From positions 182,315 through 246,314 of the forward strand of contig JBAZGN010000001.1 of NCBI GenBank assembly GCA_041652815.1: a DNA stretch of 64,000 bases, in the 5' to 3' direction. This DNA comes from Candidatus Omnitrophota bacterium. GTDB lineage: Bacteria > Omnitrophota > Gorgyraeia > Duberdicusellales > 4484-171. Position 1 is the first letter of the stretch; each line of letters starts with the position of its first letter. Positions 1-52,181 of the stretch are shown here, piece by piece. The position numbers and the translations under genes are program-made. The notes beneath the pieces are model-generated. The model made no database searches. It was not told the DNA's origin and worked only from the letters and a program-made list of their open reading frames with translations.

Positions 1-3000
1 TAACCTTTGAGGCTATGGTTAAAGAGCCGGTGGTATCAATATTGATATTTGCTGTACCGCTATAACCCCAGCTATCCACGCCTTCTAATCCGAAATTCTT
101 TACTGAATAACCCCACGTACCCGGGTCGATAAGAGTTAAATTGCCCTGATTTTTAATATTAATGTTGTAACTGTTAACTGAAGTGTCGCTCACTCTTGCG
201 GCAAGTTGGGAAACCTGGGTTTCCAAAGCATCTTCGCCCCATAAAGGATGCGAGCCAATTCCTAATGCTGAATCAAGAATTAATTTATTCGCCACTACAT
301 TCATTGCCGCGGCGTTATTATCAACGATTCTCCTATATTTACTGATAAGGGTGGCTGTGCCGGTTCCGGCATTAACATATCCAAGGCGTATATCGCCCCA
401 GGCAGTTAAATTAACGTCTCCGTTATTGGTTAAAATCTGCGCGCTACCGGATTGAACTATATTGCCATAAGCGTCTAAATCATTATAACCGCCTAATAAG
501 GTTATGGTTTTGCCGGCGAGAAGAGTTTGAATAGTTGTGCCGGTATTCTGAACGATGTCGTCTCCGGCGCTAAGAGTAATGTTTCCGTTGTTTGAGGTAA
601 TATTCGCATTGATGGTTAACCTATCCGCCAATGCAGGATAATCAGCAGTTTCTCCGGCGCTAAGGTTAATATCGCCGCTGGCAATCACATTAGCATTCAC
701 AGTTAATGGTGAAGCCGTTGAAATATTTACTGCGCCGTTTAAAGCATGAATCGCATAACCCCACGCAGCAGGATCAACAAGACTCAAATCGCCCGTATTA
801 TTAATTTCTATATTTCCGTTTGTGGTTTGTGCGGATAAGTTGGAAACTTCTGTTTCAAGGGGATTACCTGTACCGATGCCATCTTGAGCGGAAAGAATAA
901 GACTGGTAGCAGTGATATTAAGGTTGACAACGGGTGGTCCTGTTGTATCATTGCCGTCAAAAATTGCTCCTGTAGCCCTTAAATCCACCAAAGCGCTTGT
1001 TCCTGTCGCGCTGATATTACCAATATATAAATCTCCGCCTGTAACGTCTACAAAAATATCTCCGTTATTGTTTGAACCGTTAAAATTTAAAGACGAATTA
1101 CCGTTCTGGTTGAAATTAATATTTCCGTTTGTGGTGTTTGCGGTTGTATTTACCGGAAGGCCATTGCTTGTCGTGTTGTCTACATTAATATCTCCGCCGG
1201 CATTATTTAAAGTAATATCGTTTGCGATGGTTTCAATTGCATTGCCTGCGCCGATACCGCTAAGTGCGTTAAGAATAACATTAGCAGCGCTAATATTGTT
1301 TAAACCCCCGTTTAAATCGATAATTGCACCAGCACTAGTAATTAATTTAACTGTGCCGATAGAATCAACCAGGCCAACAGAAATATCTCCTGTAGCGTCT
1401 ACCTCTATATTGCCCGCAGAATTAGTGATTAAGCCCGGGCTGTAAACTGTATTGGCAACAATCTTAAGGTCGCCTGAAGAAGTAGTAATTGTACCGTAAT
1501 TGTTCAAGTTATTGAGTAGATCAAGTACGTTGCCGTTTAAATCCAGGGTCTTGCCTGTTATCACATCTACATTATAAAAAGTTGTGGTGCCATAAAGATT
1601 AGAAGTACCTGTGCCGCCAAAAACAATTGTGCTATGTTTGGGGTCAAACGTGCCGTTGTTGGTCCAGTTACCAGTCACGGTTATAATTTCCCCATCTAAC
1701 GTTGTCAGGGAACTGCCTGGAGTTATAACAATATTATTAAAAGTAAGGTCATCGCCGGAAGCGCCGCTTGCTATGCTGTTGCCGTTAAAAGTAACCGTAC
1801 CGCCGTTGGCATTGAAGGTGGTGCCGTAGCCGTTTAATTGGAAGATGCCGGCGATATTCATATTGCCGGCAGGGGCATTAAGAGCATGGCCAATGGCAAT
1901 GTATAAATTATTAAATGATGGCTCGATAGAACCACTAATAGTGCTAGTGGTGCCGTCACCGTAGAATCTAACGCTTGCATTATTATGGTTAAAAGTACCG
2001 TTTTGAATCCAGTTTCCGGATACCTTTATTTCATTGACAGGGGCAGTAAGGCTGGTGCCCGCACCGATAGTCAAGTCACCGGTGATATCTAAAGTAATTG
2101 TGCTGCCGCCTACACTTAAAGCGCTAGTGCCGGCAGTAATAAGATTATGGAAAGCTTGCGTATAAGGCGTGCCGTTAATCTGCTGACTGCCCGCACCGTT
2201 AAAAATAACCGTACCGCCGTTGGGATTAAAGGTGCCGCCGTTATTGGTCCAGTTACCTGAAATATTAGTATTTGCACCTGCGCTAAAGGTAGCTCCGCTC
2301 TCAATAATTAAACTCTTAGCAGTTACATCATCTCCCGGAGTAAAAGTTTTCCCTGCCCAAATCAACAGGTCGCCGTTTACATTCAAGGGACTGGAAACGC
2401 TATAAATTATATCCGGGTCGGTTAATCCGCCTTTAGCAGCGGCTAAGATTGCGTTGGTAATCGCTCCGGCAGCTTCATGCCTTAAAATTAAAGTTCCGCC
2501 ATAAATATTTAAACCAATTATATCCGCTGCTACGCCGGTAAGAGTTACGGTAGTTCCATGCACAACATTGCCGTCTATATAAACTAAAATAACAGAGCCA
2601 TCAGCATAATTTACATTGGCAAAGCTATAATTACCGTTTGTGGTAATAACAGGACTGCCGATAACGTTTCCGTTTATAACAAGAATTATATTTGCGCCAT
2701 CCGTAATCCGTGTTATGCCCTGGTCAAGATAAACAATACCGGAAATAGCGAAACCAGTTGGCACCGGAATCTGCCAAATAAAGCAAGGATAGCCATTATT
2801 TATGCTGGCATTAATCCCCCAAGTGTTAGTGAAATCCCATCCGGCGTTAGTAAACGTTGATTGGGTTTTCATGTCTGCGGTAGATTTTCCAGTCATGCCT
2901 GATGGATCGCTAGAACCATTACCAGCGCCTCTGGATATACCAGAAACGTCTTTATCCCAGAAATTTGCTGTATAATGAGCGCCGATATCGTTATATCCAA

Positions 3001-5833
3001 CTAAACCGCCAAAATATATTGCGGGGTGACTGGAACTGCCTGATGTACTGGCCGTAGCGCTTATATTACCAGCAAAATAAGATTTTTCGATAGTACCATA
3101 ATTTTGCCCTACTAAACCACCAATATACACGGTGGCATCGCTATCACTACCAGTTGTTGATGCTGTGCCAGACACATTTCCTCTAGCGTAACAGTTAGAA
3201 ATAGTACTGGAAGAGCTGACCTGGCCAACTAAACCACCAACGATAACGGTAACGGGATTATCATGCCCTGTCCTTGCCCACGTGCCAGTCACATTGGTAG
3301 TGGAATAGGATTTAGATATACTGCTTGAATGGCTGATATAACCAGCTAGACTTCCAACATAATTTCTACCTGTTATACTTCCGCCCTCTAAACCGACATT
3401 TTGGATTTGAGCACCATAGAGATAGCCAAAAAGACCAACATAGTCTGAAGAGCGGTTTATATAAAGACCTGTAATTTTGTGATAATCGCCGTCGAGACTG
3501 CCGGTAAAATTATTGGAACTGCTGCCTACCGACTCAAAGCCTTTGTTGCTATCCCAAGTAGAGGTTCCGGAAGCATCTATGTCTTTCGCGAGCTTAAAGT
3601 ATGACGAAAGGTGGCATTTCATTGCCTGTAGACCATAGATATCATATATAAGGTATGGGGTAGCTGAACTGCCAGTTCCGGTAAAGCGGTTAAAAGTGCC
3701 ACCCGGCAGAGTAAAACTGTTGGATACGCTAAAAACAATGGTTGGGTCAGACTGGAAAGTCCCGCTGTTTAAGATAAAATTAGCTACGCTAATCGCGTTA
3801 TTCTGTACAAATGTCGGATTTGAACCGGAATCAGACTCTCTTAAAGTAAGCGTTGCCACTCCGCTTATGGTGCGCAGCATGCAATTTTTTGGGCTCCCCG
3901 AAGAAAGCGCAGAGCTTCTTATGGTAAGATTATTGTTATTCCCAATAATAGAAGAACCAGGCCCCATGCTAAAAACACCCCAGCCGCCGGTATTATGATC
4001 TGCCCAGAAAGTAAGATCGCCGGTCATATTTATAACGGCATTGTCCGCGATATTAATGTCATCGTCATCATACCAGGGGCCGCTATAATTTCCGCTACCC
4101 CAGGTTATTGCATTGTCAAGATTATCTAGATATGCAGATTCGACTTCAGCTGTTCCGCTAACATAAAATGACGCGCCGTGCTCTAAAAGGGTCTTTGCCC
4201 TTAAAATGCCTGTGGCTTCAATGGGCCCCTGGGCTTCAAGAGTAACGGTTCCACTTGATAGAATTGTTCCGGTTATATTTATGCCTTGATTACTGGTTAA
4301 AGAAATGTTTTGAGCGGAAATTTCACCTGCGATTATGATGGTATAAGTGCTGGTAAGAGCAGGGTCGTACGGTAGGGTGGTCGCGAACACAACATTTGCA
4401 GCGTTGTAAGACGGTGGTGCGCGGCCGTTTAAGACGCCGTAAAAACCTAATTGATTAAAAGCATTTATTTCAAATGAACCAGCATCACCTTGTATACTAC
4501 CGGCTGATACATCAATTACCGCTCCGCTTAATACGTCTGTACCGCCGTTTGTTGACTTAACCAATATCTGGCCGCCGTTACCCACGGTAAACGGGCAAGC
4601 TGCACTGGTTACACTATTTGAACCTAAAACAGTTGAGCTCTGGGAAATAAGTTCGACTGACCCGGCTGTTCCACCTTCATATGCGTTTGCTGAAATTAAG
4701 CCATTCTGGAAGAGCATCGCGCTCAATAACGCAACTTGCCCTCCGTCAACTGCTGTGCTCGTTCCATCCGCGGTAATTGAACCGCTATTTATTAAAACTC
4801 CATTATCGGCAGTAACAGCGATAGTTGCCTCGCCTGAAACAGGGTTGCTTACACTAATAGTTCCTTCATTTATAATATTGCTTGTTGCATTAACAATCTT
4901 TATTTCTTTGCTTGCCTCTATAATGCCGGTTGCGGTATTTATAATCGGTGCGCCGCTGGCGGCAAGCTCGATAACTCCGTCGTGCTCGTTTAATGCTTTT
5001 GCCTGGATTACGCCTGAATTATTTATCGCGTAGTCAAAAACCTCATTTAAGACTTTAGCTGTTAGAATAATTTTTCCGCCGTTTGCAGAAATGGTGCCGC
5101 TATTTTTAATTGCGCTATCCATTCTCTGGCCGTCGGGTCCGATGATTTCTGACTGAACGGCTTCATCTATGACTACGGAAATTAAACTATTGTTGTCTAA
5201 GCCAACGGTAATTTTTTCACCGGCAGCCAAAGCAATCGTTCCTAAATTAGCTAAGGCATAAATTTCGCCCTGATTTTCTACTGCCTGGGAAAGAAGACAA
5301 ATGTATCCTCCGGCTTTGTTGGTTGAAAGCATTCCGTTGTTGATGACGTAAGCGTTCTTGCCGGCGACTTTAAAAAATTCATAGTTGCCTTTCATAAAAT
5401 TTTCGTTGGTGATATCAAGAGTTGAGGCAACTAACCCCGCGGCATTAACGTGGCTTCCTGAACCAAATAAAATTCCGTTTGGATTTACTAAAAAGATTTG
5501 CCCGTTTGGTGCGTTGATTGTCCCGAAGATACTGGAAGGGTCGGCTCCGGTTACGCGGTTTAAAGAAATAAAAGACGAATCGCGGTTATAGTTAACTGTC
5601 TTACCTGCGGCAACGTTATAACTGTTCCAATCAATAATGGATTTGTCGCTGCCAATATTTATGTCTACTGTGTTGGGGTTGGTATTGATTATGGCAGCAG
5701 AACCGTCTACGACTGTGCCGCCTTCGGGAAGACTTTGCGAAAAGCAATTCAAAGAGAGTGAAAAAAGAAAAATAGCCAGAAAGGCTATTTTGTAAATACT
5801 GATTTTTTTGCTAAATTTTTTAAACGACTCCAT
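1..5833 (-). CDS. Two-partner-secretion exoprotein TpsA (filamentous haemagglutinin / large adhesin family), 3' end beyond the window
   Basis: The minus-strand frame is open from ATG at 5833-5831 to the window edge; it is missing from the ORF track because its stop lies outside. My own translation of the first ~550 codons gives a signal peptide (MESFKKFSKKISIYKIAFLAIFLFSLSLNCFSQ) followed by a TPS secretion domain (NYNRDSSFISLNRVTGADPSSIFGTINAPNGQIFLVNPNGILFGSGSHVNAAGLVASTLDI), then long G/S/T/N-rich beta-helical repeats. Only one >=60 aa ORF is listed on the minus strand across 1-5833, consistent with a single uninterrupted frame. Confidence 0.75.
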   Translation of the reverse strand, partial: MESFKKFSKKISIYKIAFLAIFLFSLSLNCFSQSLPEGGTVVDGSAAIINTNPNTVDINIGSDKSIIDWNSYNVAAGKTVNYNRDSSFISLNRVTGADPSSIFGTINAPNGQIFLVNPNGILFGSGSHVNAAGLVASTLDITNENFMKGNYEFFKVAGKNAYVINNGMLSTNKAGGYICLLSQAVENQGEIYALANLGTIALAAGEKITVGLDNNSLISVVIDEAVQSEIIGPDGQRMDSAIKNSGTISANGGKIILTAKVLNEVFDYAINNSGVIQAKALNEHDGVIELAASGAPIINTATGIIEASKEIKIVNATSNIINEGTISVSNPVSGEATIAVTADNGVLINSGSITADGTSTAVDGGQVALLSAMLFQNGLISANAYEGGTAGSVELISQSSTVLGSNSVTSAACPFTVGNGGQILVKSTNGGTDVLSGAVIDVSAGSIQGDAGSFEINAFNQLGFYGVLNGRAPPSYNAANVVFATTLPYDPALTSTYTIIIAGEISAQNISLTSNQGINITGTILSSGTVTLEAQGPIEATGILRAKTLLEHGASFYVSGTAEVESAYLDNLDNAITWGSGNYSGPWYDDDDINIADNAVINMTGDLTFWADHNTGGWGVFSMGPGSSIIGNNNNLTIRSSALSSGSPKNCMLRTISGVATLTLRESDSGSNPTFVQNNAISVANFILNSGTFQSDPTIVFSVSNSFTLPGGTFNRFTGTGSSATPYLIYDIYGLQAMKCHLSSYFKLAKDIDASGTSTWDSNKGFESVGSSSNNFTGSLDGDYHKITGLYINRSSDYVGLFGYLYGAQIQNVGLEGGSITGRNYVGSLAGYISHSSSISKSYSTTNVTGTWARTGHDNPVTVIVGGLVGQVSSSSTISNCYARGNVSGTASTTGSDSDATVYIGGLVGQNYGTIEKSYFAGNISATASTSGSSSHPAIYFGGLVGYNDIGAHYTANFWDKDVSGISRGAGNGSSDPSGMTGKSTADMKTQSTFTNAGWDFTNTWGINASINNGYPCFIWQIPVPTGFAISGIVYLDQGITRITDGANIILVINGNVIGSPVITTNGNYSFANVNYADGSVILVYIDGNVVHGTTVTLTGVAADIIGLNIYGGTLILRHEAAGAITNAILAAAKGGLTDPDIIYSVSSPLNVNGDLLIWAGKTFTPGDDVTAKSLIIESGATFSAGANTNISGNWTNNGGTFNPNGGTVIFNGAGSQQINGTPYTQAFHNLITAGTSALSVGGSTITLDITGDLTIGAGTSLTAPVNEIKVSGNWIQNGTFNHNNASVRFYGDGTTSTISGSIEPSFNNLYIAIGHALNAPAGNMNIAGIFQLNGYGTTFNANGGTVTFNGNSIASGASGDDLTFNNIVITPGSSLTTLDGEIITVTGNWTNNGTFDPKHSTIVFGGTGTSNLYGTTTFYNVDVITGKTLDLNGNVLDLLNNLNNYGTITTSSGDLKIVANTVYSPGLITNSAGNIEVDATGDISVGLVDSIGTVKLITSAGAIIDLNGGLNNISAANVILNALSGIGAGNAIETIANDITLNNAGGDINVDNTTSNGLPVNTTANTTNGNINFNQNGNSSLNFNGSNNNGDIFVDVTGGDLYIGNISATGTSALVDLRATGAIFDGNDTTGPPVVNLNITATSLILSAQDGIGTGNPLETEVSNLSAQTTNGNIEINNTGDLSLVDPAAWGYAIHALNGAVNISTASPLTVNANVIASGDINLSAGETADYPALADRLTINANITSNNGNITLSAGDDIVQNTGTTIQTLLAGKTITLLGGYNDLDAYGNIVQSGSAQILTNNGDVNLTAWGDIRLGYVNAGTGTATLISKYRRIVDNNAAAMNVVANKLILDSALGIGSHPLWGEDALETQVSQLAARVSDTSVNSYNINIKNQGNLTLIDPGTWGYSVKNFGLEGVDSWGYSGTANINIDTTGSLTIASKV

Positions 5834-6025
5834 TCTACCCCGTGGATTTCGTGGATTTACTGATATTGTAACCGTTTTCAAATGTTCTTAAGATATAGCA
5901 TTTTAATCAAAGAATGTCAAGTCGAAAATTTAAGATTTTTGTAACTTACTAAGGTGCAGTAACTTATGAAGTAGGAATTTATGTGCGTTTAATTCAAAGG
6001 CTCTTTACCCCTTGCGCCCAGATAT

Positions 6026-6066
6026 CGTGTGAATTTTCTCGGCCTGCGGCCAGGAAAATTCACACG
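6026..6066 (-). promoter_or_regulatory. Perfect 13-bp stem / 15-nt loop hairpin in the tpsB-tpsA intergenic region
   Basis: cgtgtgaattttc-[tcggcctgcggccag]-gaaaattcacacg; the loop itself contains the palindrome ggcctgcggcc. No U-tract follows on either strand. Confidence 0.5.
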
Positions 6067-6085
6067 AAGCGCTGCGGGGTTAATT

Positions 6086-6128
6086 CACACTATTATTTTT
6101 TCGGTGTGCACGCCGAAAAAATAATGTG
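6086..6128 (-). promoter_or_regulatory. Second imperfect hairpin immediately 3' of the tpsB stop
   Basis: cacactattattttttcgg-tgtgcac-gccgaaaaaataatgtg. The arms are complementary apart from a 2-nt bulge; the element sits 5 nt downstream of the tpsB stop codon. Confidence 0.4.
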
Positions 6129-6132
6129 CTCA

Positions 6133-7842
6133 TTAAAACCGCCAGCTGAACTCAACCCAAGGATGCGCACGGTTGCCATCCGAAGGAAGCTTGCCGAGCG
6201 GATAACCCATTTCAAATTTCAAAGATAAATCTTTTACGTTAAATCTTACGCCGTATCCCCAACCGCGAAGAGTGTCGCTCTTTTCTTCTCCGGCCTGAGG
6301 GTTGTTAAGGCGGCTGTTCGCCCAGTCATAAAAACAGACCAGCCTTACGGCATCATAAAGCCGGCTTCCGGTTGTAGGCACCATTATGCCTTTAGGCAAA
6401 CCATACACGGGAAACGACCACTCCGCAGAAGAATATATTCCCTTATCTCCCGCAAATTCACCCGGGCCGTAACCACGCACGCTTTGCGCGCCGCCGATTT
6501 GAAACTGCTCTGCCGCGGCTAAATTATAATTGGAAAGCTGCGCGGAATTTTTTAATAAAAGGGATGAAGAAAAAGGCATTGGCTGCAACCTGTAGAAGTT
6601 AAAAACTCCTTTAACGAACTGGCCGCCGGCACCAACGCGCGATGCCTTGGAGTCTTTCGCGGTTAAGCCGCCCCACATACGCGGTATGCCTACGTCTATT
6701 TCAGGAGTAATAATCGTTCTGCCAAACTTATCCGTAATATCAATGTCCAGGCCATTTTTGATAACCCGCATTTCGTCACGGGAAGATTCTGCGCCGGAAA
6801 GATAGTTTTTAATATCTTTATAATCAAAGCCGAAATTATATCGTAAATCAAGTATCCTGTTTTCAAATACGGCCCGGTTTACGAATATACCGGCGATATT
6901 GGCCTTGCCTACGGCACTTAAAGCGCGAAATTCCTTTCCCAGCACCAAACGGCTATAAGAATAATAACCGCCGATTTCTGTTTTTTCGTTTACCGGATAG
7001 ATATATCTTACGTTTTTTAAGCTATAAAGGCTTTTTTGCGACATTTGATATTTAAGGTACAACTTGTCATCAAATCCCAATAAATTATTATTTTCATAAA
7101 CAAATGCCCATCGGTTTTTTTCCATATAGCGGGAACCGAAATTATCATAGTCAAAACCTATATGTATGGGGAGCCTATCCTTTACCTCTATTACTATGTC
7201 GGTTGTGCCGGGCTCAACACCGGGGACTAAAATGGCTTTCGCCATTCTGTCGGGGTTTTCATTTATATAGGTAAGAGAATTTTGGAGGATATCGTAATCG
7301 AAGTAATCTTTCGGTTTAAGTTTAATTTTTTTTTCCAACAAAGATGTGCGGAAGTAGCGGTTTCCTTTAATATCGATTTTACCCACTTTGCCTTCAATAA
7401 TTTTTATTGTCAGAATACCGTCTTTAATGGTCTGCGGCGGAAGATAGGCGCGGGAAGTGGTATAACCTTTCTTTCTATAGCTTTCGGTTATTTTATCGGC
7501 AATCTTCTGCATTTCAGAAAGAGCCAGGTCTTTGCCTTCATATCCGGAAACTATACCTTTTAACTCCTTCTCTGAAAGCAAGGTAGCGCCTTCAACGACT
7601 ATTTTCTTTATCTGGACTTTTTTGGTATCTGCAGGCAGAGGCGCTTCCTTAACGGGTTCTTCTTTAATTTCCGGCTTTTTCTTTTTCGTTTGAATTTGCT
7701 GCTCGATTGCCTTTTGCTCTTCAAGGGCTCTGTCACGCTGTTCAGTAGCTCCTATTGTCTGCGACGGCGGCACTGTTTGGGCAAATGCGCCAAAAGATAA
7801 GATAATTATAGCAGTAAAAATTGAAGCGATTTTTAAGTTCAT
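6133..7842 (-). CDS. TpsB outer-membrane transporter of two-partner secretion (ShlB/FhaC/HecB family: POTRA + beta-barrel)
   Basis: 569 aa with a signal peptide (MNLKIASIFTAIIILSFGAFAQ), a K/E-rich linker and POTRA-like region, and a C-terminal barrel ending in an aromatic (WRF). It lies immediately upstream of the TpsA gene on the same strand. Confidence 0.75.
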   Translation of the reverse strand: MNLKIASIFTAIIILSFGAFAQTVPPSQTIGATEQRDRALEEQKAIEQQIQTKKKKPEIKEEPVKEAPLPADTKKVQIKKIVVEGATLLSEKELKGIVSGYEGKDLALSEMQKIADKITESYRKKGYTTSRAYLPPQTIKDGILTIKIIEGKVGKIDIKGNRYFRTSLLEKKIKLKPKDYFDYDILQNSLTYINENPDRMAKAILVPGVEPGTTDIVIEVKDRLPIHIGFDYDNFGSRYMEKNRWAFVYENNNLLGFDDKLYLKYQMSQKSLYSLKNVRYIYPVNEKTEIGGYYSYSRLVLGKEFRALSAVGKANIAGIFVNRAVFENRILDLRYNFGFDYKDIKNYLSGAESSRDEMRVIKNGLDIDITDKFGRTIITPEIDVGIPRMWGGLTAKDSKASRVGAGGQFVKGVFNFYRLQPMPFSSSLLLKNSAQLSNYNLAAAEQFQIGGAQSVRGYGPGEFAGDKGIYSSAEWSFPVYGLPKGIMVPTTGSRLYDAVRLVCFYDWANSRLNNPQAGEEKSDTLRGWGYGVRFNVKDLSLKFEMGYPLGKLPSDGNRAHPWVEFSWRF

Positions 7843-13410: not shown

Positions 13411-13575
13411 TTATTAAATAACCAATAACCAAGATACAAGATACAAACAATATTCAAATTCCAATAACCAATGACCGAACGGAAACATTGATTTTTGTTT
13501 GATTATTGAGATTTGGTTATTGGTCATTGTTTGGTTATTGTATCTTGGAGCTTGGTTATTTCTCCAGCTATTTTA
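13411..13575. repeat. Copy A of a ~150-bp palindromic 'ggttattg/caataacc' intergenic repeat family
   Basis: aataaccaataaccaagatacaagatacaaacaat ... attgtttggttattgtatcttggagcttggttatttctccagctat. The last ~45 nt are identical to copy C (32.2 kb). It lies between the hypE stop and the rex start. Confidence 0.7.
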
Positions 13576-13590
13576 ATTATTTATGGGTTG

Positions 13591-16569: not shown

Positions 16570-17814
16570 CTATTTGTTCCTGCGTAAACTCTCCAGAAAT
16601 TCCTTTAATTTCTTTTCTTCGCCTACATCCTTAGGGAAATAATATTTAGCTTTTGCTCCATAATCTTGCTCAACGAAACCGCCAAAGGAATGAGGGTATT
16701 TGTAATCTTTGGAGTGTGTTTTGATGTGCTTCGGCACCTCTTTTGTTTCCTCAGAATCAATATCTTTTTTCGCACTATCTATCGCGAGATAAGCTGAATT
16801 TGATTTTGGGGAGCACGCGAGATAAATTGTCGCCTGGGCTAAAATTAAATCTGACTCAGGCTTACCTATAAATTCAACGGCTTTAAAAGCGCTGGTCGCT
16901 AAAACGAGCGCAAAGGGGTTTGCATTGCCGATATCTTCCGAAGCTAAAATTACAATCCGCCTGGCGATAAAACGCGGGTCTTCCCCGGATTTAATCATTT
17001 TCGCAAGCCAGTAAAGCGCGGAGTCAACATCGCTTCCTCTTACTGATTTTATAAATGCGGAAATAGTATCGTAATGGTACGAATCTTTTTTATCATAAAA
17101 TATATTTTTCTGGATACTTTCACGAGCGGTATTTAAATCGAAATTTATCTTTCCCGATGAATCTTCCTTTGTGCTGAGTATTCCTATTTCTAAAGAGCCA
17201 AGTGCCTTTCGTGCATCTCCTGCCGACAGTACGGCTATATGCTCAAGAGCTTCTTCGCTGCAGGTAATATTCATATTTCCTAAACCGTTTTCCTTATCGG
17301 AAATTGCGCGTTTAAGAATTATCATGATATCTTCTTTGGTTAGAGGCTTAAATTCAGCGACAATCGCCCGCGAGATAAGCGATGGTATAAGGTAATAATA
17401 AGGGTTATATATGGTTGCGCCGATAAGGTTAATATTCGCGCTTTCGGTATCCGGCACGAGAGATTCCTGCTGTAATTTATTAAACCGGTGGATTTCATCT
17501 ATAAAGAGAATGGTTTTTCTACCCTTATCTGCCAATGTTTTTTTCGCATTAAGGATGATTTTCCTGACCTCAACCGAAGAAGTAAAAGAGGCATTCAGAT
17601 ATATAAAATCAGCCTCTATACTTTGAGCAACAATAAGGCCAAGGGTAGTTTTTCCGCATCCGGCAGGCCCGTGAAAGATAAGCGAAGGAAGCCTTTTGGC
17701 GATAATTGAGCGTTTTAAGAGCTTTCCTTCTCCTAAAATGTGTTTTTGGCCGATAAATTCTTCAAGGGTTTTGGGACGTAATCGCAGAGCAAGAGGTGCA
17801 TCATTTTGAGACAT
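16570..17814 (-). CDS. rarA: Replication-associated recombination protein A (RarA/MgsA AAA+ ATPase)
   Basis: Walker A GPAGCGKTT, Walker B LFIDEIHRFNK, sensor motifs, and MgsA-like C-terminal domains. Confidence 0.85.
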   Translation of the reverse strand: MSQNDAPLALRLRPKTLEEFIGQKHILGEGKLLKRSIIAKRLPSLIFHGPAGCGKTTLGLIVAQSIEADFIYLNASFTSSVEVRKIILNAKKTLADKGRKTILFIDEIHRFNKLQQESLVPDTESANINLIGATIYNPYYYLIPSLISRAIVAEFKPLTKEDIMIILKRAISDKENGLGNMNITCSEEALEHIAVLSAGDARKALGSLEIGILSTKEDSSGKINFDLNTARESIQKNIFYDKKDSYHYDTISAFIKSVRGSDVDSALYWLAKMIKSGEDPRFIARRIVILASEDIGNANPFALVLATSAFKAVEFIGKPESDLILAQATIYLACSPKSNSAYLAIDSAKKDIDSEETKEVPKHIKTHSKDYKYPHSFGGFVEQDYGAKAKYYFPKDVGEEKKLKEFLESLRRNK

Positions 17815-17836
17815 ATATTCACCACGGATTGATTTG

Positions 17837-18289
17837 CTATTTGAATCGATCTTTTATTGCGGGAGAAATAAAATAAATAAACAAGAATAGACCAAATAAA
17901 AACGGTATCAACATTGGGCACATATTTTCCGGCCAGCTTCCAGTTTTGATTGTAAATTTAATTTTTTCAATATTATTAAATCCTAAAAGATAAAAATAGC
18001 GGATGGGTTGAAAAATGCAATAAAATGGTACTAATATAAATAAAGTTAGATTTCTAGCCCAGGATTTTAATTTTTTCAAACCTATTCCAACAATAAGCAA
18101 AAATAAACTATAAGGCAGTCCGGCAAGCAAACTAACTAGAATGTCCACACCCATTGGATACGGGCCTTTACGGCCTCCATAATGGATGGTAATCATACTT
18201 TCAAAATAACCAAGAACCGCGGATAAAATTCCCCAAATAATTAAAAGCCATCCGAATATTATTGCTCTTTTTAATTTTTTTTCAGCCAT
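17837..18289 (-). CDS. Small integral membrane protein (4 predicted TM helices), function unknown
   Basis: Hydrophobic segments only. Confidence 0.4.
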   Translation of the reverse strand: MAEKKLKRAIIFGWLLIIWGILSAVLGYFESMITIHYGGRKGPYPMGVDILVSLLAGLPYSLFLLIVGIGLKKLKSWARNLTLFILVPFYCIFQPIRYFYLLGFNNIEKIKFTIKTGSWPENMCPMLIPFLFGLFLFIYFISPAIKDRFK

Positions 18290-18329
18290 AAAATTTACAT
18301 TATTTTATTTAAATCCAATAACAAACCCT

Positions 18330-18680
18330 CTGTAATATATTATCACAGAGGGTTAAAAAGGCAAAGTGGGGTGTTGGAAATTGGTTGGTGAAGTTAATTA
18401 CCCCTCGCGCCTGAATATCGTATAAATTTTCCACGCTTGTTTCACAAGCAGGAAAATTTATACGAAGCGCTTCGGGGGTGTTTTTTTGCTGCCCGAAGGA
18501 CAGCAAAAAAACACCCTGCCATCAGTCCGTCTCAGGCTTGCTGCATACAGTCCGTTTCTCATACAAGTGGGTGCTTCATCCTATTCGCCTCAGCGAAAGG
18601 AAATTCAGCTCCCGTGTATTAGGTGTTGGCTGTAGCACTTTAACCTGTTGACGCAACAGGCAGGGTTAATTTTCCCTTTC
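18330..18680. ncRNA. GC-rich, highly structured non-coding island (candidate small RNA or leader; identity unknown)
   Basis: 490 bp without a credible ORF in an otherwise densely coding, AT-rich context. Nested perfect hairpins: aaccctctgtaatatattatcacagagggtt; cgtataaattttcc-[acgcttgtttcacaagcag]-ggaaaatttatacg; mutually exclusive cttcggg/cccgaag versus gggtgtttttttgctg/cagcaaaaaaacaccc. On the minus strand, the segment from ccctgcctg to caggg (~150 nt) closes on itself. Confidence 0.35.
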
Positions 18681-18779
18681 TTCCACCTTAGTATAACATT
18701 CGCTTAACCCTATTTCAAGGCAATCAGCCAATCTTTGTGAAAACGCTTACACAATTGCGAGCATTGCGCAATCAAAGAG

Positions 18780-19154
18780 CTACCAGATTCCTTCTTCAAC
18801 CATAAAACAGGCGTTTGAGGTAACTTCGATACCGTAATTTTTAGCTTTCTCTATGGCTATACTTGACTCTGAACCCGGCTGCATCCAAATTTCTTTAATG
18901 CCCAGCTCATTACATTCATCAACTATACGCTCAGTAACGCGCGCGGGCACAACTGTAATTACCAAATCTATCTTAGTGTTGATTTCTTTTAGGCTCCGGT
19001 AGATTTTTCTTCCGGAAATTTCTCCATCGGTTGGATTTATGCCTACGACATTAAAACCGTTTTGCACAAGGTCATTGAATATTCTAAATCCAAATTTATT
19101 TTCTTTGTGCGAAACTCCTACTACGGCCATTATTTTTTTCTTTATATCCTGCAT
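18780..19154 (-). CDS. CoA-binding domain protein (YccU/YneT-like)
   Basis: 124 aa with the Rossmann-like start IMAVVGVSHKENKFGFRIFNDLVQNGFNVVGINP, typical of the CoA_binding_2 family. Confidence 0.6.
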   Translation of the reverse strand: MQDIKKKIMAVVGVSHKENKFGFRIFNDLVQNGFNVVGINPTDGEISGRKIYRSLKEINTKIDLVITVVPARVTERIVDECNELGIKEIWMQPGSESSIAIEKAKNYGIEVTSNACFMVEEGIW

Positions 19155-19224
19155 TACTTTTCTATTTTCTTAAACACCGCTCCAGCAGAAATTTCTACTT
19201 ATAGCGATATGGTTATCCACATAA

Positions 19225-20256
19225 TTAACTTTTAACAAATTTTTCTATTGCTTTGACTGCAAGTTCAATCACCGCATTCAAATCATCTGTGCAAAAAACA
19301 CCCGTAGGGGAATGCGCATAGCGGCTGGGCACACTTAATACTCCGGCAGGAATACCTTCTCTGTTCATATTAATCATTGCTCCGTCGGTCATTCCTCCCT
19401 CAACTACATCAAGCTGGTATTTTATTTTATTTGTTTTGGCTGTCTCGATAAAAAGATTTTTTATTTTTTCGCTGACAATAATCCCTCTTCCCGCAGCTTC
19501 AATCATGGTAATGCAGGCACCATACCCAAGCTTAAGATTTGATTCATTTTCCTTTATCATCGGGGTATCCCCGGCGCTGGTTGTATCTATCGCGATTGCG
19601 AAATCCGGATTTATCTTAAAAGAAGAGGTGCGTGCCCCCTTTAAGCCAACTTCTTCCTGCACCGTGCTAACTGCATAAATTTGCGCATTGATTTTTAACC
19701 TTTCCAAAATTTTTATCAAAGCAAAGCAGCCTACCCTGTCATCTATGGCTTTTCCGTAAATGAGGTTTCCGGAAAGTAAGCCTGCGTTTGGTTCAAAAAT
19801 AACTGAGTCAGCTATGGAAACTCTTTTCTCTGCCTCCTCTTTTGTCCTTGCTCCGATATCGATAAACATATCAGTATATTTTATCGGATTTTTCCTTTCT
19901 TCTTCTTTGACGAGGTGCGGCGGTTTCATTCCGATAATCCCGAAAGCATCTCCTTTTTTTGATTTTACAACAACACGCTGGCCAACAAGCACTCTGTCAT
20001 CTATCCCGCCGATTTTAATAAAATTAAGGTACCCATCTTTGGTTATATATTTCACAAGAAGGCCTATTTCATCCATATGCGCGGCAACCATAATTTTTTT
20101 TACGCCTTTTCCTTTACGTGCTATCACATTCCCGAAACCGTCGATTTCTACTTCTTTTGTAATTTTCTTGAACTCATCATACATTATTTTTGTAATCTCG
20201 CTTTCATACCCTGAAACGCCTGCGGCATTGATTACTTTTTTAAGTAATGGGTCCAT
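19225..20256 (-). CDS. M42-family metallo-aminopeptidase (FrvX/YsdC-like)
   Basis: N-terminal VSGYE; His/Asp/Glu metal-ligand blocks (HMDEIG, DDRVG, EEVGLKGA) in the M42 order. Confidence 0.8.
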   Translation of the reverse strand: MDPLLKKVINAAGVSGYESEITKIMYDEFKKITKEVEIDGFGNVIARKGKGVKKIMVAAHMDEIGLLVKYITKDGYLNFIKIGGIDDRVLVGQRVVVKSKKGDAFGIIGMKPPHLVKEEERKNPIKYTDMFIDIGARTKEEAEKRVSIADSVIFEPNAGLLSGNLIYGKAIDDRVGCFALIKILERLKINAQIYAVSTVQEEVGLKGARTSSFKINPDFAIAIDTTSAGDTPMIKENESNLKLGYGACITMIEAAGRGIIVSEKIKNLFIETAKTNKIKYQLDVVEGGMTDGAMINMNREGIPAGVLSVPSRYAHSPTGVFCTDDLNAVIELAVKAIEKFVKS

Positions 20257-20280: not shown

Positions 20281-20550
20281 AACGTCTCTCGGTTACGGTT
20301 ACGATGCCCGTTTCGTCTTACGGTTACGTTTTACGTTTCAATTAAAATAACCAATAACCAAGGTACAAGATACAAACAATATCCAAATTCCAATTACCAA
20401 TAACCAAACAAAAACGTTTGGTTATTGAATTTTGGTTATTGCTCATTGTTTGGTTATTGTTTCTTGTATCTTGGTTATTTATTTCCATAGGCGTTACCGC
20501 TAAACGTAACCGAAACGGGCTTCGTTGCCGTTACCATAGCCGCTATCAAA
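20281..20550. repeat. Copy B of the 'ggttattg' palindromic element, nested inside an outer 'cggttacg' inverted repeat (total ~270 bp, near-perfect dyad)
   Basis: Outer arms are cggttacggttacgatgcccgtttcg and cgaaacgggcttcgttgccgttacc. The inner part is aataaccaataaccaaggtacaagatacaaacaat ... attgtttggttattgtttcttgtatcttggttatt. Confidence 0.7.
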
Positions 20551-20998: not shown

Positions 20999-21063
20999 AC
21001 CATCTCCTTTTCAATGAGCACAGCATTTTTTCGAGCCGCCCTGGCGAAGAAAAAATGTTGGCT

Positions 21064-28234: not shown

Positions 28235-28414
28235 AATTTTTTTGCACAGATAAAGGTTGCGTTAATCGGTTGCGGTTACGCTACTCGTTACGTCCATCGT
28301 CAATCGGTTGCGTTTGGAAGACGATAGACGATTAACGCAGCCGAAACTAGTGGCGCAACCGCAAGACGTATGACGATATGCTGAATCTATGATCATCTGC
28401 TATCTTACCTGCGA

Positions 28415-31481: not shown

Positions 31482-31490
31482 ATTTTAAAC

Positions 31491-31567
31491 ACGAATCACC
31501 ACGAATTTGGAACGAATTGCCACGTCCCGCCCTTTAATATTTTTATTAGCGTGACGTGGCAATTCGT
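31491..31567 (-). promoter_or_regulatory. Phased ACGAAT x3 direct-repeat array merging into a 15-bp-stem hairpin, immediately 5' of the PilZ-fusion start codon
   Basis: ACGAATcaccACGAATttggaACGAATtgccacgtc-[26 nt]-gacgtggcaattcgt. The repeat spacing is 10 and 11 bp. The start codon is at 31481. Confidence 0.45.
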
Positions 31568-31569
31568 GT

Positions 31570-31749
31570 CCTAAGCTTTATATAACAGATTTTTTGCGAA
31601 TATGCAAACTTACCCGCGAATCAGTCCCGAGGTAACGTCGTGACGGTTCAGCCACCAAACCAGACCGAAGGTCGATTTAGGGCTGCCCTGAACCGAATTT
31701 ATTCTGGTTTAGGGCGGGGTTACGTCCATTACTACCAAGCAATAGAGCT
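31570..31749 (-). ncRNA. GC-rich structured 5' leader of the PilZ-fusion gene; candidate riboswitch (c-di-GMP-I/GEMM-like similarity noted, unverified)
   Basis: A 268-bp gap between co-directional genes with locally elevated GC. Read on the minus strand, GGACGUAACCCCGCCCUAAACC resembles the GGACGCAAAGCC...CCUAAACC core of GEMM-I aptamers (Vc2-type); this is recalled from memory, not searched. Confidence 0.3.
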
Positions 31750-32174: not shown

Positions 32175-32320
32175 AAATAATCAATAACCAAGATACAAGA
32201 TACAAACAAATCTCAATATCCAATAACCAAACGAAGATGTTGGTCATTGTTTGGTTATTGAGATTTGATTATTGGTCATTGTTTGGTTATTGTATCTTGG
32301 AGCTTGGTTATTTCTCCAGC
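32175..32320. repeat. Copy C of the 'ggttattg' palindromic repeat family
   Basis: aatcaataaccaagatacaagatacaaacaa ... attgtttggttattgtatcttggagcttggttatttctccagctat. The 3' end is identical to copy A. Confidence 0.7.
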
Positions 32321-38240: not shown

Positions 38241-38424
38241 ATTTACTCCTAATGAGCACATCATTTTTCCAAGCTGCCTGTCCAGACAGGCGCGCAGAAA
38301 AAATGATAGTGCGAATTATCCCGAAGTGCTCTCAAAAAATATCGAACGAGTACTTGCGTAGAGAGATTTTTTGAGTATACAGGCACTTCGGGATTTTTCA
38401 TATCCCCAACAAAAATTCTTAACC

Positions 38425-42445: not shown

Positions 42446-42807
42446 TTTTACCTCCTCTTGTTAGTCCACAGTCCATAGAGAGCGAAGCCTCCCCGCAGGG
42501 GACCATAGTCCATAGTTTTAAATCTGTGGGCTATCGACTGTCGACTATGGACTATTTTTAGAATAGGCAATATTTTAACAACAGTGGGGTTTAAAGTAAA
42601 TAGAATTATTTTGTGGCTTTGGAATCAACTGTCCCTGTTTTTAATATGACTTGCTATGGCTTAAAATGTTATAAAAATTAGTAAAGATGAGTTTTTAGGT
42701 CTCGCGGGTTTTTTATTTGCCCCTCGCAGGGCAACAGCCCTTTCCATCATTTGCCTGCAGGCATAGCCTCATCCGCCGGAAGCGGGCAGGGAATTCTGAC
42801 AAAGAAG

Positions 42808-51702: not shown

Positions 51703-51902
51703 TAATATTACTATATCATTGTTTTGTCTAGTGTCAATATAAAGAGTCTCGTTAAGCGAAATATTTATAATACTACTTACGGTAATTGGTTTTTTGTGCT
51801 TCTATGTTTAAAAATGAGTTTTATCTAAGGTAATCAAACAAAGATAAAATACAGTAACGATAACTATTCTTAAGTGCTTGTGTTCCAATATGTTATAATT
51901 CA

Positions 51903-51931
51903 TTGACAATAACGGCTTTTTATGGTATCTT
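51903..51931 (+). promoter_or_regulatory. Sigma70-like promoter TTGACA-N17-TATCTT for the small secreted protein gene
   Basis: TTGACA at 51903-51908 and TATCTT at 51926-51931. A strong SD (AAGGGAGGGAG) sits 5 nt before ATG 51950. Confidence 0.4.
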
Positions 51932-51949
51932 TAAAAGGGAGGGAGTAAC

Positions 51950-52174
51950 ATGAGTAATAAAATATTACTTGTAAGTTGTTTATTAGTGATGCCTTTCTGT
52001 GGATTTGCTCAGCCTGTTGCAGACACAAGCGCTAAAGATGATACAGCTTCTCCTACTGTCCAAACAGACGAAAGAGAAATATCGGAAGGCGAGGGAAAAG
52101 TTTTGAAAGATTTTGTTATTACTGCACCACAATTGCCATCCATCAAAACTACTGAAGAAAAAGAAAAGAAATAA
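51950..52174 (+). CDS. Small secreted acidic protein (74 aa, signal peptide), function unknown
   Basis: Signal peptide MSNKILLVSCLLVMPFCGFA/QP; strong RBS and candidate promoter. It is the only plus-strand gene in 30 kb. Confidence 0.45.
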   Translation: MSNKILLVSCLLVMPFCGFAQPVADTSAKDDTASPTVQTDEREISEGEGKVLKDFVITAPQLPSIKTTEEKEKK

Positions 52175-52181
52175 ATAATTA

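What the first reader, a model, noticed from the sequence alone, without database searches (positions are those of the whole stretch)
18290..18779. 490-bp GC-rich, ORF-free island with nested perfect hairpins and mutually exclusive stems - candidate structured RNA
In a genome where most spacers are under 150 bp and AT-rich, this gap has markedly higher GC and contains several perfect stems:
- aaccctctgtaatatattatcacagagggtt
- cgtataaattttcc ... ggaaaatttatacg, with a self-folding loop
- two overlapping alternative helices, cttcggg/cccgaag versus gggtgtttttttgctg/cagcaaaaaaacaccc
Read on the minus strand, a ~150-nt segment closes on itself (ccctgcc ... ggcaggg), reminiscent of the closed rod of 6S-type RNAs. 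I could not recognise the RNase P, tmRNA or SRP consensus cores by eye.
Basis: seen in the sequence. Interest (0 to 1): 0.55.

Follow-up and report, generated by a model that had tools for sequence, protein, structure and literature searches.

The report
6S RNA gene plus palindromic repeat
The gap holds an ordinary 6S RNA gene (a small RNA that ties up RNA polymerase) of an uncultured Omnitrophota bacterium. It is followed by one copy of a small, repeated, movable hairpin element; the gene is a routine annotation and the element is a minor curiosity.

Summary

The ~150-nt closed rod on the minus strand is a genuine 6S/SsrS RNA gene. The evidence:
- An Rfam RF00013 hit at 18509-18669(-), 47.4 bits against a gathering score of 46.4.
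- An extended -10 promoter 12-14 nt upstream, and a U7 run at the 3' end.
- Strong covariation in homologues.
- The conserved position upstream of rarA, seen in about 30 related loci and already known from Firmicutes.

Hairpins B (18476-18516) and A (18401-18477) form one copy of a lineage-specific tandem-hairpin repeat. Other copies lie at 6003-6135(-), 38250-38400(+) and 21012-21060(+), and in relatives. They occur in both orientations, always against a stop codon or ribosome-binding site. One orthologous site is filled in one relative and empty in another.

B, A, a CA-rich spacer, hairpin T (18324-18354) and the 150-aa ORF form a block. This block sits between 6S and rarA only in this genome; in a relative it travels with the ORF to another site.

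Verdict: a new member of a known RNA family plus an ERIC/Correia-like element. Low to moderate interest.

The parts
18509..18669 (-). 6S/SsrS RNA, core matched by Rfam RF00013 (full model 1-187)
   Evidence: 47.4 bits against a gathering score of 46.4; alignment to the consensus, E 2.3e-8 locally, and no plus-strand hit.
18505..18683 (-). Predicted full 6S transcript (~179 nt). The A-rich 5' leader pairs with the 3' U-run and extends the closing stem.
   Evidence: Inverted repeat I2. Fold -68.5 kcal/mol, z -4.97. The extension helix is 81% paired across homologues (helix 1). Both ends are inferred, not mapped.
18690..18718 (-). Sigma-70-type promoter: -35 TTGAAA (18718..18713), 17-nt spacer, extended -10 TGtTATACT (18698..18690)
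   Evidence: 10 of 12 matches plus TG. The same layout is conserved in L081, L165, L166, L170 and L168.
18614..18627 (-). 5' strand of the central bubble (AACACCUAAUACAC), with the conserved CCAACA. The product RNA is predicted to start around 18625.
   Evidence: Rfam structure line. CCAACA is conserved. The pairs that MFE folding draws here are not conserved. The pRNA start is inferred by analogy only.
18554..18568 (-). 3' strand of the central bubble (ACUUGUAUGAGAAAC)
18569..18613 (-). Short terminal stem-loop of 6S (GGGAGC...GCACCC)
   Evidence: Compensatory changes against L081 at three pairs. Helices 6-7.
18505..18511 (-). U7 run directly after the closing stem; likely the 6S 3' end or an attenuation point
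   Evidence: A U-run after GGCGGGG/GGCAGGG is present in most homologues.
18476..18516 (-). Hairpin B of the repeat element. The 5' arm is the 6S 3' end plus the U-run; the 3' arm is its complement.
   Evidence: I1; -30.1 kcal/mol. It has the same U-run / GC stem / A-run design as B in the other copies.
18401..18477 (-). Hairpin A of the repeat element: CCCC-GAA-GCGC-UU-[14 bp AU-rich stem]-AUAUUCAG-GCGC-GA-GGGG, followed by UAAUUAA (18394-18400)
   Evidence: Model R2 gives 110.5 bits here and 100.1 bits for the 6-kb copy. The two copies differ by two compensatory pairs.
18355..18393 (-). C/A-rich, G-poor unstructured spacer
   Evidence: Partly homologous to the sequence before hairpin T in L001 and L172.
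18324..18354 (-). Hairpin T, terminator-like, 34 nt before the ORF150 start codon
   Evidence: the only terminator-like site in 17700-19300.. Homologues exist in L001 before rarA and in L172 before the ORF150 homologue.
17837..18289 (-). 150-aa predicted membrane ORF with no Pfam match. It is inserted together with B, A and T between 6S and rarA.
   Evidence: Only 3 homologues were found. It is absent from the 6S-rarA spacer of relatives. It occurs with the same upstream block after the PAC2 gene in L172.
16570..17814 (-). rarA/mgsA, the conserved downstream partner of 6S
6003..6135 (-). Second full copy of the element (TAATGA-B-A). It starts with the stop codon of a 569-aa ORF.
38250..38400 (+). 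Third full copy, inverted relative to the flanking hypF and hypC genes
   Evidence: 25.4 bits, E 1e-5.
21012..21060 (+). B-only copy, inverted, between the stop of the cNMP-binding gene and the ribosome-binding site of the DUF4440 gene

Best explanation
The gap contains the ssrS (6S RNA) gene of a Candidatus Omnitrophica/Omnitrophota bacterium, transcribed on the minus strand.

**Transcript (inferred).** An extended -10 sigma-70-type promoter (TTGAAA-17-TGtTATACT) should start transcription near 18683. The RNA should end at or near the U7 run at 18511-18505, giving about 180 nt.

**Fold (shown).** It forms the canonical 6S rod:
- a long closing stem, extended by pairing of the A-rich leader with the U-run;
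- an open central bubble (AACACCUAAUACAC against ACUUGUAUGAGAAAC);
- a short terminal stem-loop.

**Function (inferred by homology).** It mimics an open promoter and binds the housekeeping-sigma RNA polymerase holoenzyme, damping sigma-70-dependent transcription when nutrients are scarce. It is released when the polymerase uses it as template for a short product RNA, predicted to begin about 5'-GUUGGCUGUAGCAC (GG at positions 4-5).

**History of the locus.** In the ancestral arrangement, still present in close relatives, 6S sits immediately upstream of rarA and probably serves as its 5' leader. In this genome a block of about 670 nt has been inserted between the 6S U-run and the rarA ribosome-binding site. 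The block consists of:
- one copy of a tandem-hairpin palindromic repeat (B then A);
- a C/A-rich spacer;
- terminator-like hairpin T;
- a 150-aa membrane ORF.

**The hairpin element.** It is a lineage-specific, movable, ERIC/Correia-like intergenic repeat. It most likely acts at the RNA level on the minus strand, as a 3'-end or intercistronic stabilising, processing or termination structure. That last step is inference.
For: **6S identity**
- Rfam hit above the gathering score, covering the full-length model, on the minus strand only.
- Promoter match with extended -10, conserved in position and sequence in L081, L165, L166, L170 and L168.
- Fold z-score -4.97.
- Model-fitted alignment of 20 rows: 91.9% of cells paired against 69.1% shuffled and 36-51% slid; 42 of 48 pairs show double changes.
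- Sequence-only alignment of six close relatives: 94% paired against 39-45% slid; 6 pairs with double changes.
- The window and L081 differ by compensatory changes at five pairs, while the pairs that MFE folding draws inside the bubble are broken.
- 6S hits lie directly upstream of rarA on the same strand in L003, L005, L007, L009, L081-L083, L085, L087-L091, L094, L096, L098, L099, L038, L040, L056, L103 and L164-L171.
- 6S-rarA linkage is already documented in Lactobacillales and for B. subtilis 6S-1 (PMC8414754).

**Organism**
- The window's RarA is 100% identical to a protein named Candidatus Omnitrophica bacterium.

**Insertion**
- L166 has only about 45 nt between the 6S closing stem and the rarA start codon, and its 'aatccgtggagaat' matches window 17815-17836.
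- ORF150 and T are absent from that spacer in relatives. The block [TAATGA-B-A-spacer-T-ORF150] recurs after the PAC2 gene in L172.

**Repeat element**
- Further copies in the window and in L001, L165, L170 and L172, in both orientations.
- An orthologous site is filled in L170 and empty in L166.
- G-U pairs in B and T exist only on the minus strand.
Against: - The Rfam score exceeds the threshold by only 1 bit. The closest sequenced homologue outside the genus (L081) falls below it at 38.9 bits, so sequence similarity to the family model is modest.
- There are no expression data, so both transcript ends are predictions.
- The alignment behind one search was fitted to the structure and contains two reverse-strand rows and one junk row.
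- The closest genome-collection relative, L001 (RarA 86%), has no 6S within the 1.1 kb upstream of rarA, so the synteny is not universal.
- For the element, no terminal inverted repeats, target duplications or transposase were identified.
- Copy number is known only from 64 kb plus fragments.
- Neither B nor A is followed by a U-tract on the minus strand, so a classical terminator role is not supported.
Confidence: 0.88

Rival explanations
1. B, A and T form a cis-regulatory leader, an attenuator or riboswitch-like switch. It would use the competing helices (extended 6S closing stem against B; CUUCGGG/CCCGAAG against B and against the outer helix of A) to control read-through from the 6S promoter into ORF150 and rarA.
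For: - The alternative helices are real.
- Only 34 nt separate T from the ORF150 start, and no promoter-like site was found there. ORF150 and rarA may therefore depend on read-through.
- In relatives rarA has no room for its own promoter.
Against: - The same B/A element occurs next to unrelated genes (tpsB/tpsA-like, hypF/hypC, hypE/rex, the cNMP-binding gene) and in both orientations.
- It is present or absent at orthologous sites.
- No Rfam cis-regulatory family matches, even at E up to 10.
- There is no conserved ligand-pocket-like unpaired core beyond a 6-nt internal loop.
Confidence: 0.12
2. The hairpins are the functional 3'-end signals of this genome. They would be non-canonical, U-tract-less terminators or RNase III-type intercistronic processing sites. 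Their sequence similarity would reflect duplication of a working signal, not a mobile element.
For: - Canonical hairpin-plus-U terminators are not enriched in the window: 17, 25 and 18 found against 22.5, 20.2 and 12.5 expected.
- Long perfect hairpins are about 75-fold over-represented.
- Direct copies start at the upstream stop codon.
- 47 of 51 genes are co-oriented, so intercistronic processing is plausible.
- G-U pairs point to minus-strand RNA.
Against: - Three copies are inverted relative to the flanking genes.
- The filled/empty polymorphism and co-translocation with ORF150 point to gain and loss.
- This reading is compatible with the best explanation; it differs mainly in origin.
Confidence: 0.3
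3. The whole island is a single longer non-coding RNA of about 360-490 nt, in which the 6S-like rod is only one domain.
For: The 401-nt minus-strand fold is very stable, at -158.8 kcal/mol with z -9.6. No canonical terminator separates 6S from B and A.
Against: - In L166, L170, L168 and L081 the conserved sequence stops at the U-run, and rarA follows within 6-70 nt.
- B and A occur elsewhere without 6S.
- The high stability is explained by three independent perfect hairpins.
Confidence: 0.05
4. The Rfam hit is a false positive and the region is only a palindrome-rich spacer.
For: The score is 1 bit above threshold. The genome is rich in palindromic spacers.
Against: Conserved promoter, synteny with rarA in about 30 loci with hits up to 114.5 bits, and covariation.
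Confidence: 0.02

Closest known systems
6S RNA / SsrS (Rfam RF00013; E. coli SsrS, B. subtilis 6S-1/BsrA)
   Same: - Rod architecture with closing stem, open central bubble and terminal stem.
- Conserved GGGAGC...GCACCCAC and CC(A/G)A motifs around the bubble.
- Its own strong sigma-70-type promoter.
- Size of 160-185 nt.
- Score above the family threshold.
   Different: - The terminal stem is short (45 nt), so the core is 161 nt against a 187-position model.
- The score is borderline.
- The A-rich 5' leader pairs with a 3' U-run.
- Biochemical behaviour (holoenzyme binding, pRNA) is untested.
6S-rarA neighbourhood of Firmicutes (Lactobacillales; B. subtilis 6S-1), PMC8414754
   Same: 6S RNA and the replication-associated recombination gene rarA are neighbours. 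The same pair is seen here in Omnitrophota, Planctomycetota-, Lentisphaerota-, Nitrospirota- and Bacillota-labelled MAGs.
   Different: - In Lactobacillales rarA lies upstream of 6S, and the two are judged to be monocistronic.
- Here 6S lies upstream of rarA on the same strand.
- In several relatives the rarA start codon follows the 6S U-run within 6-45 nt.
E. coli ssrS-ygfA (fau) dicistronic unit (from established knowledge, not tested here)
   Same: 6S is made from the 5' part of a transcript that continues into a protein-coding gene. This is the likely ancestral state of this locus (L081, L166).
   Different: - The downstream gene is rarA, not 5-formyltetrahydrofolate cyclo-ligase.
- In this window an inserted block separates the two.
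- Processing enzymes are unknown.
Small palindromic intergenic repeats: ERIC/IRU of enterobacteria, Correia elements of Neisseria, BOX/RUP of pneumococci, REP/BIME (from established knowledge)
   Same: - Imperfect palindromes of about 100-150 nt.
- Several dispersed copies within operons and between genes.
- Either orientation.
- Presence or absence at orthologous sites.
- Co-transcribed hairpins.
   Different: - No sequence similarity to those families.
- Built from two successive hairpins with a 'TAATGA' end that abuts stop codons or ribosome-binding sites.
- No inverted terminal repeats or target duplications recognised.
- Genome-wide copy number unknown.
Ms1 RNA of Actinobacteria (PMC9130861)
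   Same: A 6S-like rod RNA that interacts with RNA polymerase and is found through synteny searches (abstract).
   Different: Ms1 binds the core enzyme and belongs to another family. The window sequence matches RF00013 and no other family.

Membership tests
6S RNA / SsrS (RF00013) | Covariance-model score at or above the curated gathering score, over the full model | tested here: met
   47.4 bits against 46.4, model positions 1-187 of 187, minus strand only. The margin is small.
6S RNA / SsrS (RF00013) | Rod-like fold: closing stem, large central bubble, terminal stem | tested here: met
   Structure line of the Rfam alignment. MFE rod with z -4.97. The bubble pairs drawn by MFE are not conserved against L081.
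6S RNA / SsrS (RF00013) | Helices supported by compensatory changes in homologues | tested here: met
   91.9% paired, 42 of 48 pairs with double changes, 0 of 500 shuffles reach this, slid controls 36-51%. (sequence-only alignment of 6 relatives): 94% paired against 39-45% slid.
6S RNA / SsrS (RF00013) | Conserved sequence blocks flanking the bubble (..GCCAACA.., GGGAGC, GCACCCAC, ACGG..) | tested here: met
   Alignment of 19 homologues and of 6 close relatives.
6S RNA / SsrS (RF00013) | Independent housekeeping-sigma promoter and a discrete size of about 150-200 nt | tested here: inconclusive
   A consensus promoter with extended -10 is conserved in relatives, and the predicted length is about 179 nt. 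No transcript data are available.
6S RNA / SsrS (RF00013) | Conserved gene neighbourhood typical for the family in the lineage | tested here: met
   Directly upstream of rarA in about 30 loci. The linkage is known from Firmicutes.
6S RNA / SsrS (RF00013) | Binds sigma-70-type RNA polymerase holoenzyme and templates product RNA | not testable with these tools
   Needs biochemistry. The pRNA start near 18625 is inferred by analogy only.
Intrinsic (Rho-independent) terminator | G+C-rich hairpin immediately followed by a U-tract on the transcribed strand | tested here: not met
   For B and A, no U-tract follows on the minus strand and the scan does not call them. T is called, but with a weak tail (TGTTATTGGA). 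'Closing stem + U7' is terminator-like, but its 'loop' is a 140-nt domain, so it is not scored.
ERIC/Correia/REP-like small palindromic repeats (MITE-like) | Several dispersed intergenic copies with conserved sequence and hairpin structure, in either orientation | tested here: met
   Window copies at 18.4 kb, 6.0 kb, 38.3 kb and 21.0 kb. Relatives: L001, L165, L170, L172/173. Three of the copies are inverted.
ERIC/Correia/REP-like small palindromic repeats (MITE-like) | Filled and empty orthologous sites | tested here: met
   In L170 about 150 nt are inserted just before the ribosome-binding site of the cNMP-binding gene, relative to L166. The 6S-rarA spacer is empty in L166, holds the module only in L165, and holds the module plus ORF150 in the window.
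ERIC/Correia/REP-like small palindromic repeats (MITE-like) | Terminal inverted repeats with target-site duplication, or an associated transposase (RAYT for REP) | tested here: inconclusive
   No duplication is recognisable at the L170/L166 junctions. No transposase was looked for. Only one filled/empty pair was available.
ERIC/Correia/REP-like small palindromic repeats (MITE-like) | High copy number genome-wide | not testable with these tools
   Only 64 kb of the genome and short fragments of relatives could be read.
Riboswitch / gene-specific cis-regulatory leader | Consistent association with one class of downstream gene, and a match to a described family | tested here: not met
   Copies precede or follow unrelated genes. 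No Rfam cis-regulatory match at E up to 10.

The most novel reading that the evidence does not exclude
Two linked ideas are not excluded by the evidence.

(1) In Omnitrophota and neighbouring lineages, 6S RNA forms the entire 5' leader of the rarA mRNA. The purine-rich 3' strand of the closing helix (GGCGGGG/GGCAGGG) lies at Shine-Dalgarno distance from the rarA start codon. Translation of a replication-fork rescue factor would then be coupled to the folding or release state of 6S.

(2) The B/A tandem hairpin is an undescribed family of mobile intercistronic elements that target stop-codon/ribosome-binding-site junctions. In this genome, together with a small membrane gene, it has broken that ancestral 6S-rarA coupling.
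Probability: 0.25. Interest if true: 0.5.

Novelty: new member of a known kind. Interest (0 to 1): 0.27.

Why it matters
Finding 6S RNA here mainly improves the annotation of an uncultured phylum for which I found no 6S report. It shows that the 6S-rarA linkage known from Firmicutes extends, in a different gene order, across several other phyla.

The locus also gives a clean natural series: 6S fused to rarA, then 6S plus hairpin element, then 6S plus element plus inserted gene. That series could be used to ask two questions:
- whether 6S and rarA expression are mechanistically coupled;
- what long U-tract-less hairpins do in genomes that lack enriched canonical terminators.

None of this overturns current understanding.

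Tried and rejected
- **Other RNA families.** A permissive Rfam scan of 18200-18850 (E up to 10) gave only chance-level microRNA or CRISPR-repeat hits on the hairpins.
- **MAFFT plus RNAalifold on 19 distant 6S sequences** recovered only the closing stem and the GGG/CCC helix, because the variable helices were misaligned. I replaced it with a covariance model (R1).
- **MFE pairs inside the central bubble** were rejected: 4 of 7 are broken in L081.
- **Exact-pattern searches for the module** in the first 160 loci found nothing. Model R2 found L001 but missed the diverged copies in L165 and L172, which I recognised by eye and by the B-arm pattern.
- **MAFFT alignment of five A hairpins** failed, so no third model was built.
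- **Looking for strain variation** through the CoA-binding protein returned only 100% identical contigs.
- **Small ORFs in the gap** (65 aa on minus, 61 aa on plus) were set aside. They lie across the 6S gene and the hairpin element, the gene callers behind the identical contigs L161/L162 call nothing in the gap, and sequence downstream of the 6S U-run is not conserved in relatives.
- **Hairpins as a classical bidirectional terminator** was rejected. The runs are arranged U-run/stem/A-run on both strands, the reverse of what a terminator needs.
- **Protein structure prediction and fold search** were not used, as they are irrelevant to an RNA locus.
Full report
**1. Checking the observation**

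The interval 18290-18779 lies between the start codon of a 150-aa minus-strand ORF (17837..18289) and the stop of a CoA-binding-domain gene (18780..19154). With a rough gene model it is the longest of 41 intergenic gaps in the window, whose median is 91 nt.

Its G+C is 0.42, against 0.361 for all gaps and 0.37 overall. The excess is concentrated in 18499-18683 (0.481), and the left 200 nt are ordinary at 0.373.

Folded as minus-strand RNA they are very stable:

| Hairpin | Energy (kcal/mol) | z-score |
|---|---|---|
| B | -30.1 | -9.3 |
| Extended A | -42.9 | -8.4 |
| T | -19.4 | -7.2 |

Perfect hairpins with arms of 12 nt or more occur 10 times in the window, against 0.13 times in dinucleotide shuffles. 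B and T each contain one pair that is G-U on the minus strand but a mismatch on the plus strand. That points to a minus-strand RNA.

**2. The rod is a 6S RNA gene**

A scan of the whole window against Rfam at curated thresholds gave two hits: a tRNA, and RF00013 (6S/SsrS) at 18509-18669 on the minus strand. The 6S hit covers the full model and scores 47.4 bits against a gathering score of 46.4. The permissive scan of the island added nothing credible and gave no plus-strand 6S hit.

The alignment to the family consensus shows:
- the closing stem, AACCCUGCCUGUU-G-CGU with ACG-GACU-GGCAGGGU;
- a second helix, UGCUACAGCC with GGACUGUAUGCA;
- a bubble of 14 nt against 15 nt;
- a short terminal stem, GGGAGC...GCACCC.

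A sigma-70-type promoter with an extended -10 (TTGAAA, 17 nt, TGtTATACT) ends at 18690. It is one of very few TG-extended sites in the window. It predicts a start near 18683.

The A-rich leader (GAAGAAAGGGAAAAUU) can pair with the U7 run that follows GGCAGGG (I2). That gives a ~179-185-nt rod of -68.5 kcal/mol with z -4.97.

**3. Comparative support**

*Organism.* The downstream RarA/MgsA protein is 100% identical to a database protein named Candidatus Omnitrophica bacterium.

*Synteny.* I fetched loci around RarA relatives from genomes and metagenomes and scanned them.
- Rfam finds 6S directly upstream of rarA, on the same strand, in L003, L005 and L009 and in 12 of 19 metagenome loci, with scores of 52-105 bits. 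A 13th hit, L092 at 114.5 bits, lies about 2.6 kb upstream.
- The permissive mode adds L007 and a sub-threshold L081.
- A covariance model built from the window and L081 (R1) adds loci labelled Bacillota, Victivallales and Nitrospira.
- R1 also finds all eight loci of the closest relatives, with RarA identity of 87-92%, at 148-201 bits.

*Conservation in close relatives.* The promoter, the whole 6S sequence and the terminal GGCAGGG plus U-run are conserved. Similarity then stops abruptly.

*Covariation.*
- On the model-fitted alignment of 20 rows, 91.9% of cells form pairs. Shuffles give 69.1% and slid partners 36-51%. Of 48 pairs, 42 show changes on both sides.
- On a sequence-only alignment of six close relatives, 94% of cells pair against 39-45% slid, with six doubly changed pairs.
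- The window and L081 differ by compensatory changes at five pairs. Four of the seven pairs that energy minimisation draws inside the bubble are broken, as expected for an open bubble.

*Literature.* The 6S-rarA neighbourhood is documented for Lactobacillales and B. subtilis 6S-1 (PMC8414754). I found no paper mentioning 6S RNA with Omnitrophica or Omnitrophota.

**4. How it most likely works**

What is shown: the sequence, the fold and the context are those of 6S RNA.

What is inferred from established knowledge of the family:
- The RNA imitates an open promoter and occupies the housekeeping-sigma holoenzyme.
- It is expelled when the enzyme transcribes a short product RNA from the 5' strand of the bubble.
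- By analogy with E. coli and B. subtilis, the conserved ..GCCAACA.. segment predicts a product RNA starting about GUUGGCUGUAGCAC.
- Its GG at positions 4-5 is a feature that PMC8414754 reports as conserved.

None of this can be tested with the tools at hand.

**5. The perfect hairpins are something else**

B (18476-18516) and A (18401-18477) recur together at 6003-6135 on the minus strand, starting with the stop codon of a 569-aa ORF. Sequence blocks are shared, and the A stem carries two compensatory differences.

A model of A (R2) scores 110.5 and 100.1 bits on these two copies. It also finds a third copy at 38316-38400(+) (25.4 bits, E about 1e-5) and one in the relative L001, after a hypE-like gene (33.2 bits).

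Patterns from the B arms reveal:
- a B-only copy at 21012-21060(+);
- a complete inverted copy in L170;
- a copy in L172/L173.

L165 carries a diverged B/A pair right after its 6S.

Common design of the element:
- a 'TAATGA' end;
- hairpin B, built as clamp / U-run / GC stem-loop / A-run / clamp;
- a short (G)AATTAA linker;
- hairpin A, with a GC-rich outer helix, a 6-nt internal loop on the 3' side (AUAUUC, AUAUCU or UAUACA) and a long AU-rich stem.

The 'TAATGA' end always touches a gene boundary. In direct copies it touches the upstream stop codon or the 6S end. In inverted copies its complement abuts the ribosome-binding site of the next gene.

One orthologous spacer is filled in L170 and empty in L166. 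The ~150-nt difference ends exactly at the ribosome-binding site.

The element is absent at model level from 255 kb of more distant loci. It is therefore a young, lineage-specific, gain-and-loss palindromic repeat, closest in kind to ERIC, Correia, BOX or REP elements. I could not show terminal repeats, target duplications or a transposase.

**6. The locus as an insertion**

- In L081 the rarA start codon follows the 6S U-run directly.
- L085, L087 and L090 show MDLF-type rarA starts within about 10-12 nt.
- L166 has about 45 nt, ending in 'aatccgtggagaat-ATG'. This matches window 17815-17836, just before rarA.

So the window has acquired about 670 nt between the U-run and the rarA ribosome-binding site: the element, a C/A-rich spacer, hairpin T and the 150-aa ORF.

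That ORF has only three homologues. In L172 the same upstream block (TAATGA-B-short A-spacer-T-'gatttaaataaaataa') precedes it, but after the PAC2 gene. So the block moves as a unit. L001 keeps T in front of rarA but has neither 6S nor the ORF there.

In the window copy, the 5' arm of B is the 6S 3' end itself, GGGUGUUUUUUUGCUG. Hairpin B shares only the three G residues 18514-18516 with the core 6S closing helix, and overlaps more of its optional A/U extension.

**7. What the hairpins do**

This remains inference. On the minus strand neither B nor A is followed by a U-tract, and only T is called terminator-like. Canonical terminators are not enriched anywhere in the window, while long hairpins are. 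In addition, 47 of 51 genes share one strand.

The most economical reading is that these elements are co-transcribed and act as 3'-end or intercistronic stabilising, processing or termination structures. A dedicated attenuator for ORF150 and rarA is less likely, because the same element sits next to unrelated genes in both orientations.

**8. Verdict**

The evidence offered for it, the perfect hairpins, belongs to a different feature.

The 6S gene is a straightforward new member of a known family that standard Rfam-based annotation would pick up, although the score is borderline. Two side observations are modestly interesting and unreported as far as I could find:
- 6S acting as the probable 5' leader of rarA across several phyla;
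- a movable tandem-hairpin element that has split that unit here.

Overall interest is low to moderate.

Noticed in passing
L081 2982-2997; L087, L085, L090; L166 9972-10003: In several relatives the rarA start codon follows the 6S closing stem and U-run within 6-45 nt. That leaves no room for a separate promoter. It also places the GGCGGGG/GGCAGGG strand of the closing helix at Shine-Dalgarno distance, so 6S appears to be the whole 5' leader of rarA.
   Followed up: partly
window 6003-6135(-), 38250-38400(+), 21012-21060(+); L001 4660-4800; L170 5610-5705; L172 1282-1372: Further copies of the tandem-hairpin (B/A) element. Its 'TAATGA' end always abuts a stop codon (direct copies) or, as its complement, the ribosome-binding site of the next gene (inverted copies).
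   Followed up: partly
L170 5545-5705 compared with L166 6935-6945: A filled and an empty orthologous site for the element. About 150 nt, including an extra upstream hairpin, are inserted exactly before the GAAGGAGG ribosome-binding site of the cNMP-binding gene.
   Followed up: yes
window 13458-13590, 20345-20480, 32221-32260: A different kind of long palindromic spacer, built from repeated 'ATAACCAA'-type words and their complements. The arms reach 65 nt at 20345-20480. At the hypE/rex junction the window has this spacer, whereas L001 has the B/A element.
   Followed up: no
L174 620-890: An A-type hairpin (R2 16.8 bits) upstream of an ORF150 homologue lies between a tRNA gene that I read by eye as Asn (with a canonical terminator) and a 15-nt direct repeat of that tRNA's 3' end, CCCTACCCGGGGAGC. 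This looks like the scar of an integrated element.
   Followed up: no
window 1-60000: Hairpin-plus-U-tract terminator-like sites are not enriched over shuffles: 17, 25 and 18 found against 22.5, 20.2 and 12.5 expected. The genome may not rely on canonical intrinsic terminators.
   Followed up: partly
L001 1-1094: The closest genome-collection relative (RarA 86%) has no 6S within the 1.1 kb upstream of rarA. It keeps a homologue of hairpin T (1021-1051) preceded by what looks like a decayed TPR-type coding sequence. Its 6S gene must lie elsewhere or be lost.
   Followed up: partly
window 18754-18772: Two ATTGCG repeats and a 10-nt palindrome, ATTGCGCAAT, lie 35-55 nt upstream of the 6S -35 element. 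They could be an operator or the 3' structure of the CoA-binding gene.
   Followed up: no
window 51703-52181, 42446-42807, 31482-31749, 28235-28414: Other long ORF-free gaps of 180-479 nt, some with G+C of 0.42-0.46. None has an Rfam hit at gathering threshold. They were not examined.
   Followed up: no
window ~1-5833(-) and 6133-7842(-): A very long minus-strand ORF starts near 5833 and runs off the window. By eye its N-terminus looks like a two-partner-secretion (haemagglutinin-type) domain. It is preceded by a 569-aa ORF ending in ...WRF, which looks like a TpsB-type transporter. I ran no family search on either.
   Followed up: no
L172 1962-2026: Downstream of the ORF150 homologue lies a run of 'ATCTGTGAT' word repeats, another word-type spacer.
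   Followed up: no
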